Assembly: GCA_038895675.1 (NCBI GenBank)
Contig: JAWANB010000007.1
Coordinates: forward strand, 1 to 28,196
Length of the DNA stretch: 28,196 nucleotides
Source of the DNA: Candidatus Iainarchaeum sp.
GTDB taxonomy: Archaea > Iainarchaeota > Iainarchaeia > Iainarchaeales > Iainarchaeaceae
Direction of reading: 5' to 3'
Shown: one piece after another, positions 1 to 3,865 of the stretch
Layout of the letters: every line of letters starts with the position of its first letter
Numbering within the stretch: position 1 is the stretch's first letter
Translations under genes and position numbers: made by a program
The notes under the pieces: model-generated
What the model was told of the DNA's origin: nothing
What the model saw: only the letters and a program-made list of their open reading frames with translations
Databases searched by the model: none

Positions 1-81
1 AGAAAATTAGGTTTTGTAGTAGACTTATTTATTAAAAAAATGAAAGAAGCAAAAGACCAAATAAAAAGAGAGCTCACATAA
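1..81 (+). CDS. Possible 3' end of a gene running in from outside the window (RKLGFVVDLFIKKMKEAKDQIKRELT*)
   Basis: Frame 1 is open from base 1 to TAA at 79-81 and reads as a plausible amphipathic helix. Too short to identify. Confidence 0.4.
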   Translation, partial: RKLGFVVDLFIKKMKEAKDQIKRELT

Positions 82-97
82 TTTGCTTGACTTTAAT

Positions 98-105
98 TTT
101 ATAAA
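98..105 (+). promoter_or_regulatory. Putative archaeal TATA box for the tRNA-Cys gene
   Basis: TTTATAAA lies 27-34 nt upstream of the first tRNA base (G132). Confidence 0.55.
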
Positions 106-173
106 TTTCATGCTATTTCAATTAAATAACCGCTGGGATGACAGAGCGGCCATGTACTCGCCTGCAGTAACCC

Positions 174-272
174 TTTTCTTTCCTTTTTACCAAGGAAAGA
201 AAAGCGTTAACGGAAAAGAAAGGTGGTGTTTTTTTCTTTCCTTTTTACCAAGGAAAGAAAAGCGTTAACGGA
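174..272 (+). repeat. Two identical 41-bp hairpin units (type A) inside the tRNA intron
   Basis: TTTTCTTTCCTTTTTACCAAGGAAAGAAAAGCGTTAACGGA at 174-214 and 232-272. Stem (C)TTTTCTTTCCTT/AAGGAAAGAAAA(G), loop TTTACC. Confidence 0.95.
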
Positions 273-276
273 TAAC

Positions 277-404
277 CCTTTTTTGCTGGTCGCAAAAAAG
301 CGTTAACGGAAATGGTATTAGTCCTTTTTTGCTGGTCGCAAAAAAGCGTTAACGGAAATGGTATTAGTCCTTTTTTGCTGGTCGCAAAAAAGCGTTAACG
401 GAAA
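277..404 (+). repeat. 46-bp tandem repeat (2.8 copies) of hairpin unit type B inside the tRNA intron
   Basis: CCTTTTTTGCTGGTCGCAAAAAAGCGTTAACGGAAATGGTATTAGT at 277-322 and 323-368, partial at 369-404. Stem CTTTTTTGC/GCAAAAAAG, loop TGGTC. Confidence 0.95.
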
Positions 405-504
405 AAATTCAATAAATAATTTGCGGCAAGCGAGCAAGGAGGGTTCGACTCCCTCTCCCAGCTTATTTTATATTTATAAAAATACATTATAATGAGTAGC
501 TAAT

Positions 505-882
505 ATGCAAGAAATTTATTCTCCATTTCAAAGAGCTTTGTTAGTAATTTTTCTTATTTTATTATATTTCGCGTTTCAAATTTCAATAGTATTTGGCATT
601 GTAGGGCCTTATTTTTGCCTATTAATTTTTTTTGCTGTGATGACGTTTATAACAAAAAAGCGTTCTGAATATTCTTACAAACCAAGCGACAATGAAGAAT
701 TTGCAAAATTTATAGACAAAAATGTAGAACTGATAATTATTTTGAGTCATTTATTCTTCTCTTTACTCGGTTTAGTAAGCATTTTTATTGTTCAAGACAT
801 TGTACATAAAATACTAATATTTTTAATCGCGATTGGATTTATTGTTAACGGAGTGATAGCTTATAATAAGGTAAAGCACTAA
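505..882 (+). CDS. Hypothetical membrane protein (about 4 TM segments)
   Basis: 125-aa ATG ORF with four hydrophobic stretches. TTTATAAA lies about 25-30 nt upstream. Confidence 0.7.
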   Translation: MQEIYSPFQRALLVIFLILLYFAFQISIVFGIVGPYFCLLIFFAVMTFITKKRSEYSYKPSDNEEFAKFIDKNVELIIILSHLFFSLLGLVSIFIVQDIVHKILIFLIAIGFIVNGVIAYNKVKH

Positions 883-885
883 AAA

Positions 886-1204
886 GTGATTTGCATATGT
901 TTTTTTTCTGTTTACAATATAAAAACAACTTTAATATTGATTCTCCTTTTGTTTTTGTTTATTGGTTGTTTTACTAATAAAAATAGTCAAATAAACCAAG
1001 AAACAGCCAAATAGTATTATAAGTAATAGCAACGGAGTGCTCGTATATACTTATTATAATCTAAATGTAATCTATGTTCTATGGCGACACGACAATAAAT
1101 TAATTAGATTCTCACTAAACAAAAAGCTTTTTGATAGTGAAGGTTTCAGCAATCCAGTGATCCAAAAGTATATTAATAAATTTCCACCTAACCAAGACAA
1201 TTAA
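886..1204 (+). pseudogene. Frameshifted remnant of a secreted/lipoprotein-like gene
   Basis: 886-1014 encodes a signal-like segment IKTTLILILLLFLFIGC then stops. An overlapping second frame is open 995-1204 (PNSIISNSNGVLVYTYYNLNVIYVLWRHDNKLIRFSL...IQKYINKFPPNQDN*) without its own ATG. Confidence 0.5.
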
Positions 1205-1213
1205 AGTTTGCGC

Positions 1214-3865
1214 TTATAATTTTTTGTTGTTCGTGAATTTTTGTATTTCCATTATAGCAAACCCAACTAAAGAAATACCAAGTATTGTTGCCCAATCAAT
1301 TAGGCTTATTGAAGTAGTGTTGAATATTTTTTGCATTGGCTCAAAATAAATTATTAATATTTGCAATAATATTGAAGAAGCTATTCCTAACACGAGCATT
1401 CTGTTTTGCAAAATATTATTGAGGCTTTTCAGAGGCTCTGAACTTCTGCTCCCTATTGCTGCAAACATTTGTAATACTACTAATGTTGTGAACGCCATTG
1501 TTTGAGCTTTTGTAATCCCCTGATTCAAGTAAGCGTAAAATAGTATAAAACTAAAGAAACCCATTATTAAGCCAAAAGTAATTATCATTCTCAAGTTTTC
1601 TTTATTCAATGGTTCTTCTTCGGCCTTTATTGGAGGCTTTTCAAGCATGTTTTGCTTTGTTTTTTCAAAACTTAATCCTATTGCAGGCAAGCCATCAGTA
1701 AGTAAGTTCATTGTTAGTATTTGTAGTGGTGTTAGTGGAAATGGCAAGTTTGCAAGCATTGTTGATACTACTATAACAACTTCTCCTAAATTGCATGACA
1801 ACAGATATTTTGTTGAGTTAATTATTTTTTCATAAACATTTTTTCCTTCATTTATTCCTATTATTATTGTTGTAAAATTATCATCCGCTATTGTTGCGCT
1901 TGAAACTTCTTTAGCTACATCTGTTCCAGTTATTCCCATTGATATTCCTAAATCAGCATTTTTTAGTGCAGGAGCATCATTTACTCCATCGCCTGTCATG
2001 GCCACTATTTTTCCTTGTTTTTTTAGAGCCTTTATTATTCTAAGTTTTTGAATAGGTAGTGTTCTCGCTATTATGCTTGTATCTTTTATTATTCTTTCTA
2101 ATTCTTCATCGCTCATTGCTTCTATTTCTTCGCCTGTGATTACTTTGTCCCCTTCTTCATACAAACCTATTTTTTCAGCTATTGCCTTTGCAGTTTCTTT
2201 ATGATCGCCTGTTATCATTATTACTTTTATTCCTGATTTTTTTGCCTGTTCTATTGCTTCTTTTACTTTTTCTCTTGGTGGATCTATCATCCCAACCAAA
2301 CCTAAAAATGTGAGGTTTGATTCGACTTTTTCTACTTCTTGAAAGTCTTCTTTGATTTCTTTGTACGCAAAACCTATTACTCTTAACGCCTCTTTCCCGA
2401 ATTTCAAGTTTGTTTCCAAAATTTGTTGTTTATCCTTTTTTGTTAGTTTGATTTCTTTGTTTTCCTTTACTATTTTTATGCTTTCTCTTAAAACAATGTC
2501 AGGTGCACCTTTTACTAAAACTAATTTCTTTCCATTTTCTTCTATTATAACGCTCATCATTTTTCTTTCTGAGTCAAAAGGAAACTCTTTTACTTTTTTT
2601 GTTTTTTGTTTTTCTTTTTCAACGTCAAAACCGAACTTTTCTGCGAGAACAAGTAATGATGCTTCCGTCGGGTCTCCTATGACTATTGTTTTTTGTTGAT
2701 TTCTAATTATTTTTGCGTCATTGCAAAGTACTGCTGTTTTTGCAATAATTTGTAATGCTTTGTCATTTTCTGGTTTAGGTGTTATTTTTCCTTCTTTCGT
2801 GTAACCCGAGCCAGTTATTTCATATTCTTTTTGTGTTGTGTAAACTTTTGTTACAGTCATTTCATTTTTTGTTAGAGTACCTGTTTTGTCGGTACAAATA
2901 ACATTTATCTGTCCTAAAGTTTGTATGGCGTCTAGTTTTCTTATTATCATTTTCTTTTTTGTGAGTTCTTGAGCGCCTAAAGCCAAGCTTATTGTTACTA
3001 TTGCTGGTAGAGAATTAGGCACTGCTGCAACAGCCAAACTGAGTGAAAAAATAAGTAATTGTGTTGTTTCTAAATTGCCTTTTAGTGTTCCTAATAGAAA
3101 TATTGCGATTATTATTAAGATTACTATCGCTCCTATTGTTTTTGAAAGTTTTTCAAACTTTTGTTCAAGCAAAGTTTTTGTTCTTTCTGTTTTTGATAAT
3201 GATGCTGCTATTTTTCCAAATTCTGTGTTATTCCCTGTCGCTATTACTATTGCTTTTCCTTTCCCGTAGGTTACTATTGTTCCCATGTACGCCATGTTTT
3301 CTCTATCCGCAACTTCACAATTCTCTTTTAGCGGTTCTACAATTTTTTTTGAGGGTATTGATTCTCCAGTAAGACTTGATTCATCTATTTGTAAGTTTGT
3401 TTCTTCGAATATTCTCGAATCAGCAGGAACAATGTCTCCAGATTCTAAAGCTATTATATCTCCCGGTACTAAGTATTTTACGGGAATAATTTTAGTTTCT
3501 CCATCTCTTATTACTTTTGCTTTTGGCGCTGTTAGTTTTTGGAGTTTTTCCATTGCCTTTTCTGCTCTGTATTCTTGGAAAAAGCCAAGTATTGCTGAAA
3601 TAAATATAACGAATATTATTGCAAGCGTTTCTAATATTTCGTGTAGAATTGCCGATACTATGGCTGCTATGAAAAGTAATATTATTAAGACGTTTTTGAA
3701 TTGGTCTAAAAGTATTTCAGTCCATTCTCTTTTTTTTTGTTTTTGGAATTCGTTATAACCATGTTCTTGAAGTTTTTGTTTTGCTTTTTCTTCAGTTAAA
3801 CCATTTTCGCTGGTTTCAAAAAACTCCATTACTTTTTTGTAATCTTGCGCGTGAAAGTTTTGCAT
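1214..3865 (-). CDS. P2-type cation-transporting P-type ATPase (Ca2+-ATPase-like) with an atypical M4 motif
   Basis: TGES, DKTGTLT phosphorylation site, KGAP, MITGD, GDGVND, M5 SCNLGE and M6 NLLTDGLP are present. M4 reads AAVPNSLP instead of PEGLP. Confidence 0.93.
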   Translation of the reverse strand: MQNFHAQDYKKVMEFFETSENGLTEEKAKQKLQEHGYNEFQKQKKREWTEILLDQFKNVLIILLFIAAIVSAILHEILETLAIIFVIFISAILGFFQEYRAEKAMEKLQKLTAPKAKVIRDGETKIIPVKYLVPGDIIALESGDIVPADSRIFEETNLQIDESSLTGESIPSKKIVEPLKENCEVADRENMAYMGTIVTYGKGKAIVIATGNNTEFGKIAASLSKTERTKTLLEQKFEKLSKTIGAIVILIIIAIFLLGTLKGNLETTQLLIFSLSLAVAAVPNSLPAIVTISLALGAQELTKKKMIIRKLDAIQTLGQINVICTDKTGTLTKNEMTVTKVYTTQKEYEITGSGYTKEGKITPKPENDKALQIIAKTAVLCNDAKIIRNQQKTIVIGDPTEASLLVLAEKFGFDVEKEKQKTKKVKEFPFDSERKMMSVIIEENGKKLVLVKGAPDIVLRESIKIVKENKEIKLTKKDKQQILETNLKFGKEALRVIGFAYKEIKEDFQEVEKVESNLTFLGLVGMIDPPREKVKEAIEQAKKSGIKVIMITGDHKETAKAIAEKIGLYEEGDKVITGEEIEAMSDEELERIIKDTSIIARTLPIQKLRIIKALKKQGKIVAMTGDGVNDAPALKNADLGISMGITGTDVAKEVSSATIADDNFTTIIIGINEGKNVYEKIINSTKYLLSCNLGEVVIVVSTMLANLPFPLTPLQILTMNLLTDGLPAIGLSFEKTKQNMLEKPPIKAEEEPLNKENLRMIITFGLIMGFFSFILFYAYLNQGITKAQTMAFTTLVVLQMFAAIGSRSSEPLKSLNNILQNRMLVLGIASSILLQILIIYFEPMQKIFNTTSISLIDWATILGISLVGFAIMEIQKFTNNKKL

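What the first reader, a model, noticed from the sequence alone, without database searches (positions are those of the whole stretch)
168..404. Array of five REP-like hairpin modules housed inside the tRNA intron
Seen: five hairpins, each followed by the invariant 15-mer AAAAGCGTTAACGGA (200-214, 258-272, 296-310, 342-356, 388-402), which contains the palindrome CGTTAACG. Two different stem/loop sequences (13-bp stem with TTTACC loop; 9-bp stem with TGGTC loop) share one scaffold, TAAC-C-[stem-loop]-C-GTTA, with a C.C mismatch at the same position (172/205, 277/301, 323/347, 369/393). Structure is thus conserved while the core sequence is swapped. Established: imperfect hairpins with fixed flanks characterise REP elements and IS200/IS605 ends handled by HUH transposases, and excised archaeal introns can be ligated into circles. 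Inference: either a family of miniature mobile palindromes using a spliced-out intron as a safe harbour, or a tRNA-promoter-driven, splicing-released multi-hairpin (possibly circular) RNA. This is the best candidate for an undescribed system in the window.
Basis: partly seen in the sequence, partly recalled or inferred. Interest (0 to 1): 0.9.

Follow-up and report, generated by a model that had tools for sequence, protein, structure and literature searches.

The report
Triplex-type hairpin repeats filling tRNA-Cys intron
The cysteine tRNA gene of a tiny hot-spring archaeon has a very long intron made of five tandem copies of a small hairpin repeat that, in related genomes, sits in many tRNA introns and right beside tRNA ends, which gives a concrete lead on how archaeal tRNA introns grow and spread.

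Summary
Window 132-463 is an intact archaeal tRNA-Cys(GCA) gene with a 261-nt intron (168-428) at the canonical 37/38 site. The intron holds five hairpin modules, each ending in AAAAGCGTTAACGGA.

The modules are not a local oddity. The same module fills four other long tRNA introns of this genome. A covariance model finds it in 22 of 23 genomes of the family and 63 of 151 of the order.

The full module has three tracts: a pyrimidine arm, its purine hairpin partner, then the spacer GCGTTAACGG and a purine tail that mirrors the purine arm. That is the design of bacterial "intrastrand triplex" repeats (PIT/BoxC/TMECO). The tail co-varies with its own hairpin.

In a congener, all 15 copies flanking tRNAs and all 16 copies in introns point their AACC foot at the exon.

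Congeners with few modules have no tRNA-Cys intron or a 69-nt one, and only 17-33-nt introns in tRNA-Ser and tRNA-Arg.

My reading is a non-autonomous DNA repeat that colonises discarded RNA segments and was amplified here by tandem duplication. No HUH transposase gene was found in this assembly (92% complete). No RNA data exist. A boundary function is not excluded.

The scan has noted the same design before in other DPANN genomes.

The parts
97..106 (+). TATA-like box TTTTATAAAT, about 26-35 nt upstream of the tRNA 5' end (candidate promoter)
   Evidence: Read from the sequence. Inference only, not tested.
132..167 (+). tRNA-Cys(GCA) exon 1: acceptor 132-138, D arm 141-155, anticodon stem 157-161, C32-G37 at 162-167, anticodon GCA at 164-166
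   Evidence: Cloverleaf laid out by hand.
168..428 (+). 261-nt intron at canonical position 37/38. Bulge-helix-bulge: central helix C162-C165 with G423-G426 (one T.G pair), bulges A166 G167|T168 and C427 A428|A429, and an inner helix of only 2 bp (A169 A170 with T421 T422).
   Evidence: pairing by hand. EndA gene present in the genome. RtcB hits present as two adjacent pieces.
168..227 (+). Module 1, the only complete three-tract copy: foot TAACCC 168-173, pyrimidine arm 174-185, loop 186-191, purine arm 192-203, spacer GCGTTAACGG 204-213, mirror purine tail AAAAGAAAGG 214-223
   Evidence: Covariance model R1, 74.4 bits. Mirror relation read from the sequence and tested on 97 modules.
229..235 (+). 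Run of seven T between modules 1 and 2. Runs of six T also occur at 279-284, 325-330 and 371-376.
   Evidence: Sequence. That archaeal RNA polymerase tends to stop at oligo-T is recalled, not tested.
232..272 (+). Module 2: same hairpin and spacer as module 1 (98% over 44 nt), without foot and without mirror tail
273..318 (+). Module 3: foot TAACCC, 9-bp stem, loop TGGTC, spacer GCGTTAACGG, tail AAATGGTATTAGT (not a mirror tract)
   Evidence: R1, 52.8 bits..
319..404 (+). Modules 4 and 5: exact 46-nt tandem repeats of the module 3 unit, with foot TAGTCC
   Evidence: Tandem Repeats Finder: 277-404, period 46, 2.8 copies, 100% matches. A 76-nt contig spanning 323-398 is seen in X2, X3 and X4, and a 70-nt one in X1.
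405..428 (+). Host-specific 3' tail of the intron. It carries GCGG (423-426), which pairs with nucleotides 32-35 of the anticodon loop, and the 3' splice bulge.
   Evidence: Sequence. The same layout is seen in relatives' introns.
429..463 (+). tRNA-Cys exon 2: A38, anticodon stem 430-434, variable loop 435-438, T arm 439-455, acceptor 456-462, discriminator T463
   Evidence: All four stems pair, checked by hand.

Best explanation
Window 168-428 is the spliced-out intron of the only tRNA-Cys gene found in the assembly. It is built from five tandem copies, of two subtypes, of a roughly 46-58-nt module.

The module belongs to an order-wide family of dispersed, non-autonomous DNA repeats. Its design is: AACC(C) foot, pyrimidine arm, loop, purine arm, 10-nt spacer GCGTTAACGG, then a purine tail that mirrors the purine arm. 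On this strand that is a class II intrastrand-triplex design; on the other strand it is class IV.

These repeats accumulate where extra DNA does no harm because the RNA is discarded: tRNA introns, leaders, trailers and gene ends. The foot always faces the exon.

In this gene, an intron that is absent or short in congeners was occupied by modules and then lengthened by two recent tandem duplications (slippage or unequal recombination between near-identical units). The pre-tRNA is still cut at the bulge-helix-bulge by EndA and joined by RtcB.

Shown: the anatomy, the family, its spread, the co-variation, the polarity, and the turnover between congeners.
Inferred: DNA-level spread, lack of any role for the tRNA, the three-stranded fold itself, and splicing of this long intron.
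For: 1. Same module in four other long tRNA introns of this genome: Ser-GGA 232 nt, Arg-UCU 161 nt, Ser-GCU 156 nt, Tyr 126 nt. It also follows the tRNA-Arg 3' end and forms an array at a contig end. The five introns of 81 nt or less lack it.

2. Covariance model R1 matches 22 of 23 family genomes at 0-78 matches per genome, and 63 of 151 order genomes. These counts are inflated by reverse-strand hits on the palindromic stem.

3. Turnover within the genus. The tRNA-Cys intron is absent in G002, 69 nt in G001, 143 nt in G004, 240 nt in G003 and 261 nt here. In G001 and G002, which have few modules, the Ser-GGA and Arg-UCU introns at the same site are only 17-33 nt.

4. Recent local duplication. 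The 46-nt units are 100% identical. Modules 1 and 2 are 98% identical.

5. Polarity in G004. Of the 55 hits examined, 11 forward and 5 reverse copies lie in introns, 8 forward copies abut tRNA 3' ends and 7 reverse copies abut 5' ends. None of the 15 flanking copies has the opposite polarity.

6. Three-tract co-variation. The tail equals the parallel complement of the 5' arm over 9 nt in 47 of 97 modules. Permuted partners give a mean of 5.5 and a maximum of 14 in 5000 trials, and there are 9 concordant signature classes. In 12 of 12 forward-reverse pairs the two tails differ from each other while following their own hairpins.

7. Stem mismatches show no G.U bias: T.G 7, C.A 5, C.T 11 of 1140 pairs. 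This gives no sign of selection at the RNA level.

8. Splicing machinery. An EndA gene and RNase P RNA are present. RtcB is hit as two adjacent pieces, so its integrity was not checked.
Against: - The strict foot-toward-exon polarity and the exact abutment to mature tRNA ends and to stop codons are easier to explain by a function or a targeted mechanism than by passive tolerance.
- The spacer GCGTTAACGG is more conserved than the stems across genera. That suggests either sequence-specific recognition or very recent spread.
- No mobilising enzyme has been identified.
- The intron holds T6-T7 runs, which should hinder transcription of what is, as far as the assembly shows, the only tRNA-Cys gene. 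How the gene stays functional is unexplained.
- The inner helix of the splice motif is only 2 bp.
- No RNA data exist for any of this.
- Only module 1 of the five has the mirror tail, so the triplex design cannot explain modules 2-5.
Confidence: 0.58

Rival explanations
1. The modules are functional boundary elements of transcription or processing units. Placed foot-to-exon at tRNA ends, splice sites, rRNA ends and stop codons, they could act in three ways. They could stop or insulate transcription, through the T-rich arm or through a DNA triplex on the non-template strand. They could keep flanking RNA from interfering with tRNA folding. Or, in the reverse orientation, they could form a U.A-U RNA triple helix that stabilises leaders or excised introns.
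For: - 0 of 15 flanking copies violate the polarity.
- Forward modules lie 2-16 nt after same-strand stop codons in at least 5 of 21 non-tRNA copies inspected.
- Modules also follow the 23S rRNA 3' region.
- Three-tract co-variation implies selection on a fold.
- Pyrimidine-motif intrastrand triplexes can form in RNA, according to the introduction of PMC4666352.
Against: - A congener has a tRNA-Cys gene with no intron and almost no modules in its genome, so the modules are dispensable.
- Leaders and trailers with modules do not come in pairs.
- Terminator-like T runs inside an essential tRNA gene would be harmful.
- Purine-motif triplexes, which is the orientation of all five copies here, do not form in RNA (PMC4666352).
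- Bacterial PIT elements showed no promoter or terminator activity (same paper).
Confidence: 0.25
2. REP- or MITE-like elements mobilised in trans by an HUH (Y1, RAYT or IS200/IS605 TnpA) transposase that recognises the imperfect hairpin.
For: - Imperfect hairpin with a conserved C.C mismatch and fixed flanks.
- Y1_Tnp genes exist in 9 of 23 family genomes.
- One of them lies about 300 nt from a module.
Against: - No Y1_Tnp hit in this genome, which is 92% complete. There is none in G006 or G011, which have 64 and 43 model matches.
- 3 of 4 transposase loci inspected have no module within the 4-5.5 kb fetched.
- No shared target sequence is seen at insertion points.
Confidence: 0.07
3. The intron encodes a functional RNA of its own, for example a stable or circular multi-hairpin RNA or a guide RNA, released by splicing.
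For: - Archaeal introns are known to be circularised. This is from the search listing and abstract of PMC3326292 only.
- The hairpins are strong. RNAfold gives -116 kcal/mol for the pre-tRNA.
Against: - No Rfam family reaches its threshold in 1-3000.
- Intron content differs completely between congeners.
- The same modules occur outside introns.
Confidence: 0.06
4. Purely local slippage or an assembly artefact with no relatives elsewhere.
For: - The array lies 130 nt from a contig end.
- No contig spans it.
Against: - Fourteen further 15-mer or near-15-mer sites lie at four other loci of the genome, and there are hundreds in relatives.
- The junction contigs recur in four runs.
Confidence: 0.02

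Closest known systems
Potential intrastrand triplex repeats of bacteria (PIT elements / BoxC / TMECO; Holder et al. 2015, PMC4666352: introduction and the section on G/C-rich versus A/T-rich motifs read)
   Same: Same order of tracts on one strand: pyrimidine stem, loop, purine stem, loop, then a second purine stem that mirrors the first (class II; class IV on the other strand). Both are dispersed and multi-copy, vary in number between close relatives, and have no assigned function.
   Different: A/T-rich (T4C/A4G) rather than G/C-rich. The second loop is a conserved 10-nt near-palindrome rather than 3 nt. This family has an extra AACC/GGTT foot with a fixed C.C mismatch. It is archaeal. It is tied with strict polarity to tRNA splice sites and tRNA ends, whereas the paper reports no relation of PIT elements to flanking genes.
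Transposed bulge-helix-bulge tRNA introns of Thermoproteales (Fujishima et al. 2010, seen only as summarised in PMC4090602, passages read)
   Same: Similar intron sequences in tRNA genes of different isoacceptors within one lineage. Gain is thought to occur at the DNA level, and the mechanism is unknown.
   Different: Here the shared unit is a sub-intron module that also occurs outside introns, in leaders, trailers and after stop codons. All module-bearing introns seen in this genome are at 37/38. The introns pre-exist in short form in relatives.
REP/BIME and MITE-type palindromic repeats (recalled; outlined in the introduction of PMC4666352)
   Same: Short imperfect palindromes with conserved flanks, found singly, in inverted pairs or in tandem clusters, mostly between genes.
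   Different: No linked RAYT or Y1 transposase in this genome. The module has a third mirror tract. It lies inside tRNA genes.
Canonical archaeal tRNA introns at 37/38, cut by EndA and joined by RtcB
   Same: Position 37/38. A 4-bp central helix with two 3-nt bulges can be drawn. An EndA gene and RtcB hits are present.
   Different: At 261 nt it is the longest of the ten introns ARAGORN found in this genome, five of which are 81 nt or less. The inner helix is only 2 bp. The content is repeat DNA.

Membership tests
Archaeal bulge-helix-bulge tRNA intron | Interrupts an otherwise complete tRNA, here at 37/38 | tested here: met
   All four stems, the GCA anticodon and discriminator T463 are restored once 168-428 is removed.
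Archaeal bulge-helix-bulge tRNA intron | Two 3-nt bulges separated by a 4-bp helix, flanked by outer and inner helices | tested here: inconclusive
   The central helix 162-165/423-426 and both bulges can be drawn by hand, but the inner helix is only 2 bp. The RNAfold minimum-energy fold does not show the cloverleaf.
Archaeal bulge-helix-bulge tRNA intron | Splicing endonuclease and ligase encoded | tested here: met
   PF01974 hit of 97 bits in a 177-aa frame. PF01139 hits of 331 and 287 bits, as two adjacent pieces.
Archaeal bulge-helix-bulge tRNA intron | The intron is actually removed from the RNA | not testable with these tools
   No RNA run holds this DNA.
Intrastrand triplex repeat (PIT/BoxC/TMECO type, class II) | Pyrimidine stem, purine stem and a second purine stem in mirror order on one strand | tested here: met
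   Met for module 1 (174-185, 192-203, 214-223) and for the family: 47 of 97 exact over 9 nt against 5.5 expected. Not met by modules 2-5 of the window.
Intrastrand triplex repeat (PIT/BoxC/TMECO type, class II) | The three tracts change together | tested here: met
   9 concordant signature classes. The tail follows its own hairpin, not its partner's, in 12 of 12 pairs.
Intrastrand triplex repeat (PIT/BoxC/TMECO type, class II) | A three-stranded fold forms physically | not testable with these tools
   Needs CD, UV melting, NMR or footprinting.
REP/RAYT or IS200/IS605-derived element | A cognate HUH (Y1) transposase in the genome | tested here: not met
   0 PF01797 hits in G000. 9 of 23 family genomes have one.
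REP/RAYT or IS200/IS605-derived element | Repeats flank or neighbour the transposase gene | tested here: not met
   1 of 4 loci inspected has a module, and on one side only.
Known RNA families (Rfam 15) | Match at gathering score | tested here: not met
   The best hit is 30 bits against a threshold of 90.

The most novel reading that the evidence does not exclude
An order of DPANN archaea marks every piece of RNA that is to be thrown away (tRNA leaders, trailers, introns, rRNA flanks, 3' ends of genes) with one and the same three-tract module, foot toward the part that is kept. The module would work through a three-stranded fold. This could be DNA on the non-template strand acting as a one-way block to RNA polymerase. 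Or it could be a U.A-U RNA triple helix, in the reverse orientation, controlling the fate of the discarded fragment. The tandem array in tRNA-Cys would then be an amplified signal of that system, not junk.
Probability: 0.15. Interest if true: 0.85.

Novelty: new variant of a known kind. Interest (0 to 1): 0.62.

Why it matters
How archaeal tRNA introns arrive, grow and move is an open question. A 2026 preprint on Asgard tRNA introns (10.64898/2026.10.13.758758, abstract and passages seen) states that how they arrive remains open.

Here one defined repeat family links four things:
- long introns in five tRNA genes of this genome;
- the flanks of tRNA genes;
- ordinary intergenic DNA;
- gain, loss and expansion visible between species of one genus.

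That makes the process traceable. It also gives the "intrastrand triplex" repeats, whose role in bacteria is unknown, a setting in which position and polarity are informative.

My searches found no paper describing such repeats in archaeal tRNA introns. Subscription journals are not covered by that library.

Tried and rejected
- Default ARAGORN finds no tRNA in the window. With introns allowed it finds the gene but labels it Gly(gcc), and it mislabels other long-intron tRNAs too. I assigned isotypes by hand.
- The Rfam scan of 1-3000 gave only sub-threshold miRNA and snoRNA look-alikes on the hairpins.
- No RNA holder is listed for this DNA. Only DNA runs of hot-spring metagenomes hold it, four with a large share and all from one study. 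No contig spans the whole array.
- A leaderless tRNA model, with the reverse module acting as promoter because RNase P is missing: rejected. RNase P RNA is present at 98.7 bits, and this gene has an ordinary TATA-like box upstream.
- A leader-trailer processing stem formed by a reverse module upstream and a forward module downstream: rejected. The two rarely occur at the same tRNA in G004.
- The mirror tail as a by-product of pairing between the tails of forward and reverse modules: rejected. The tails differ in 12 of 12 pairs.
- A G.U versus A.C bias test for selection at the RNA level: too few mismatches to decide.
- The exact 22-mer was not found in viral contigs.
- A first register-naive mirror test gave only a weak signal, 8.63 against 8.27. 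Anchoring on the first G fixed an off-by-one in the A-run.
- Rows dropped from the G004 census: 23 of 78. These were 13 partial-model rows, 6 on contigs I did not fetch, and 4 reverse-strand echoes of counted copies.

Full report
**The observation**

The 15-mer AAAAGCGTTAACGGA occurs exactly five times, at 200, 258, 296, 342 and 388. Chance expectation is 0.05, and 0 of 100 shuffles reached five.

Each copy follows a hairpin.
- Modules 1 and 2 share a 12-bp pyrimidine/purine stem with loop TTTACC and are 98% identical over 44 nt.
- Modules 3-5 share a 9-bp stem with loop TGGTC. They form a perfect 46-nt tandem repeat of 2.8 copies with 100% matches.

In modules 4 and 5 the foot reads TAGT, not TAAC, and module 2 has no foot.

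**The host gene**

ARAGORN finds no tRNA by default. With introns allowed it calls a tRNA at 132-463 with a 261-nt intron.

Laid out by hand, this is tRNA-Cys(GCA):
- acceptor 132-138 with 456-462;
- anticodon stem 157-161 with 430-434;
- anticodon at 164-166;
- G37 at 167 and A38 at 429;
- discriminator T463.

The intron is 168-428, at the canonical 37/38 site. A bulge-helix-bulge can be drawn: central helix 162-165 with 423-426, bulges 166-168 and 427-429. Its inner helix is only 2 bp.

The genome has 839 kb in 43 contigs, 32.6% G+C, and is 92% complete. It encodes one EndA, an archaeal-type RNase P RNA, and RtcB as two adjacent pieces. No other tRNA-Cys gene was found in the assembly.

Earlier notes of this scan call the organism a DPANN archaeon of the Iainarchaeota/Diapherotrites. 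I did not test that directly. The exact 22-mer of the module does occur in public records titled Candidatus Iainarchaeum.

**Not a local oddity**

In the same genome the module fills four other long introns: tRNA-Ser(GGA) 232 nt with four copies, tRNA-Arg(UCU) 161 nt, tRNA-Ser(GCU) 156 nt, and tRNA-Tyr 126 nt with a variant spacer. It also follows the 3' end of tRNA-Arg and forms an array at the end of contig C20. The five introns of 81 nt or less lack it.

I aligned 19 modules from this genome and relatives.
- The stem shows changes on both sides at 8 of 16 pairs.
- 97.5% of cells are paired, against 62% or less when partners are slid.
- The foot AACC(C) and the spacer GCGTTAACGG are nearly invariant.

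A covariance model built from this alignment matches 22 of 23 genomes of the family, at 0-78 matches per genome. It matches 63 of 151 sampled genomes of the order at E of 1e-5 or better. These match counts are inflated by reverse-strand hits on the palindromic stem.

**A third tract**

In complete modules the spacer is followed by a purine tail. The tail is the mirror image of the purine arm, which is the same as the parallel complement of the pyrimidine arm.

I anchored the comparison on the first G and compared 9 nt. The tail equals the prediction exactly in 47 of 97 parsed modules. With permuted partners the mean was 5.5 and the maximum 14 in 5000 trials. Nine different tract signatures are concordant.

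Where a forward and a reverse module face each other in one intron, the two hairpins differ in 12 of 12 cases. The two tails never match each other (0 of 12), and each follows its own hairpin. So the mirror relation belongs to the single module and is not a by-product of pairing between modules.

Pyrimidine stem, purine stem, mirror purine stem is the class II intrastrand triplex design described for bacterial PIT/BoxC/TMECO repeats. The complementary strand is class IV (PMC4666352). That paper also states that purine-motif triplexes do not form in RNA while pyrimidine-motif ones can. All five copies in this window have the purine-motif orientation in the transcript.

Only module 1 has the mirror tail. 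Stem mismatches show no G.U bias: T.G 7, C.A 5, C.T 11 of 1140 pairs. The three-stranded fold is inferred from sequence only.

**Position and polarity**

I examined 55 of the 78 model hits in a congener, G004. The 23 dropped rows are listed under Tried and rejected.
- 11 forward and 5 reverse copies lie in 11 tRNA introns.
- 8 forward copies begin within 8 nt of a tRNA 3' end.
- 7 reverse copies end within 8 nt of a tRNA 5' end.
- 1 copy lies 53 nt upstream of a tRNA.
- 23 copies are elsewhere.

None of the 15 flanking copies has the opposite polarity. The rule is that the AACC foot faces the exon and the tail points away.

A typical intron of relatives is a forward module, a variable middle, a reverse module, then a short host-specific tail that pairs with nucleotides 32-35.

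Copies away from tRNAs belong to a second subfamily with spacer CGCTGGCG or GGTTGGCG. These often start 2-16 nt after a same-strand stop codon. Modules also follow the 3' region of 23S rRNA in two relatives.

Of 14 public stretches holding the exact 22-mer, 9 are in a tRNA intron or at a tRNA 3' end. There are none in viral contigs.

**Turnover**

Within the genus, the tRNA-Cys gene varies as follows:

| Genome | tRNA-Cys intron |
|---|---|
| G002 | none |
| G001 | 69 nt, degenerate |
| G004 | 143 nt, one forward and one reverse module |
| G003 | 240 nt, with extra inserts |
| this genome | 261 nt, five forward modules, no reverse module |

G001 and G002 have 0 and 1 model matches genome-wide. 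Their tRNA-Ser(GGA) and tRNA-Arg(UCU) genes carry introns of only 17-33 nt at the same site.

So the introns are older than the modules, the modules are dispensable for the tRNA, and the array here is a recent local amplification.

**Mobilising enzyme**

No Y1 (HUH) transposase hit exists in this genome. 9 of 23 family genomes have one, with no relation to module counts. Only 1 of 4 such loci inspected has a module nearby. The REP/RAYT reading therefore fails its defining test.

**Reality of the array**

Contigs from four DNA runs of one hot-spring study reproduce these junctions: 1-203, 206-261, 243-306, 323-398 and 377-900. None spans the array. No RNA run is listed.

**Verdict**

The 'mobile palindromes in a safe harbour' reading is largely right in spirit, and the HUH link is not supported.

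The thing itself is a tandemly amplified member of an order-wide family of triplex-coded hairpin repeats bound to tRNA processing sites. I take it to be mainly a selfish or neutral DNA repeat (0.58). A boundary-element function is the main rival (0.25), because the polarity and the conserved spacer are not explained by passive tolerance.

Earlier notes of this scan reached the same triplex reading on other DPANN genomes. I read those after my own tests.

Noticed in passing
G000:C26:1422-2962 (own genome, not in the window): RtcB (PF01139) is hit as two adjacent pieces: profile positions 1-248 in a 350-aa frame and 205-426 in a 260-aa frame. This could be a frameshift, an insertion or a split gene.
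   Followed up: no
G000:C20:1-380 (own genome): An array of at least four modules runs into the contig end on the minus strand with no tRNA called beside it. A variant module with spacer GCTTGACC lies at about 327-379.
   Followed up: partly
window 229-235, 279-284, 325-330, 371-376: Runs of seven and six T lie inside the intron of the only tRNA-Cys gene found. From recall, archaeal RNA polymerase tends to terminate at such runs, so how full-length pre-tRNA is made is unexplained.
   Followed up: no
G004 loci L066-L085 (for example L077:10963-11020, L067:1540-1596): Non-tRNA modules of the CGCTGGCG subfamily are followed by a conserved CCGCTCACGC. About 35-45 nt further on there is a TATA-like TACTATAAAA or TACAATAAAA box. 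This suggests a composite gene-end plus promoter cassette.
   Followed up: partly
L041:289-359 (G015) and L056:1501-1553 (G002): Modules sit just downstream of the 3' end region of 23S rRNA.
   Followed up: no
L046 (G012): The tRNA-Cys gene of this relative has a 98-nt intron made of G+C-rich hairpins rather than the module, and a reverse module directly at its 5' end.
   Followed up: no
window 132-463; L095: ARAGORN with introns allowed gives wrong isotypes for long-intron tRNAs because it misplaces the intron: Cys is called Gly, Ser(GGA) is called Leu or Ala, and Arg(UCU) is called Pyl. Annotation pipelines will probably miss or mislabel these genes.
   Followed up: yes
L095 (G001 tRNA-Ser(GGA)): The 17-nt intron ATAATAGGTTGCCAGCA looks like the two ends of a forward-reverse element (TAA...GGTTG plus the host-specific tail) with the inside missing. 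It could be a deletion scar or the ancestral minimal intron.
   Followed up: no
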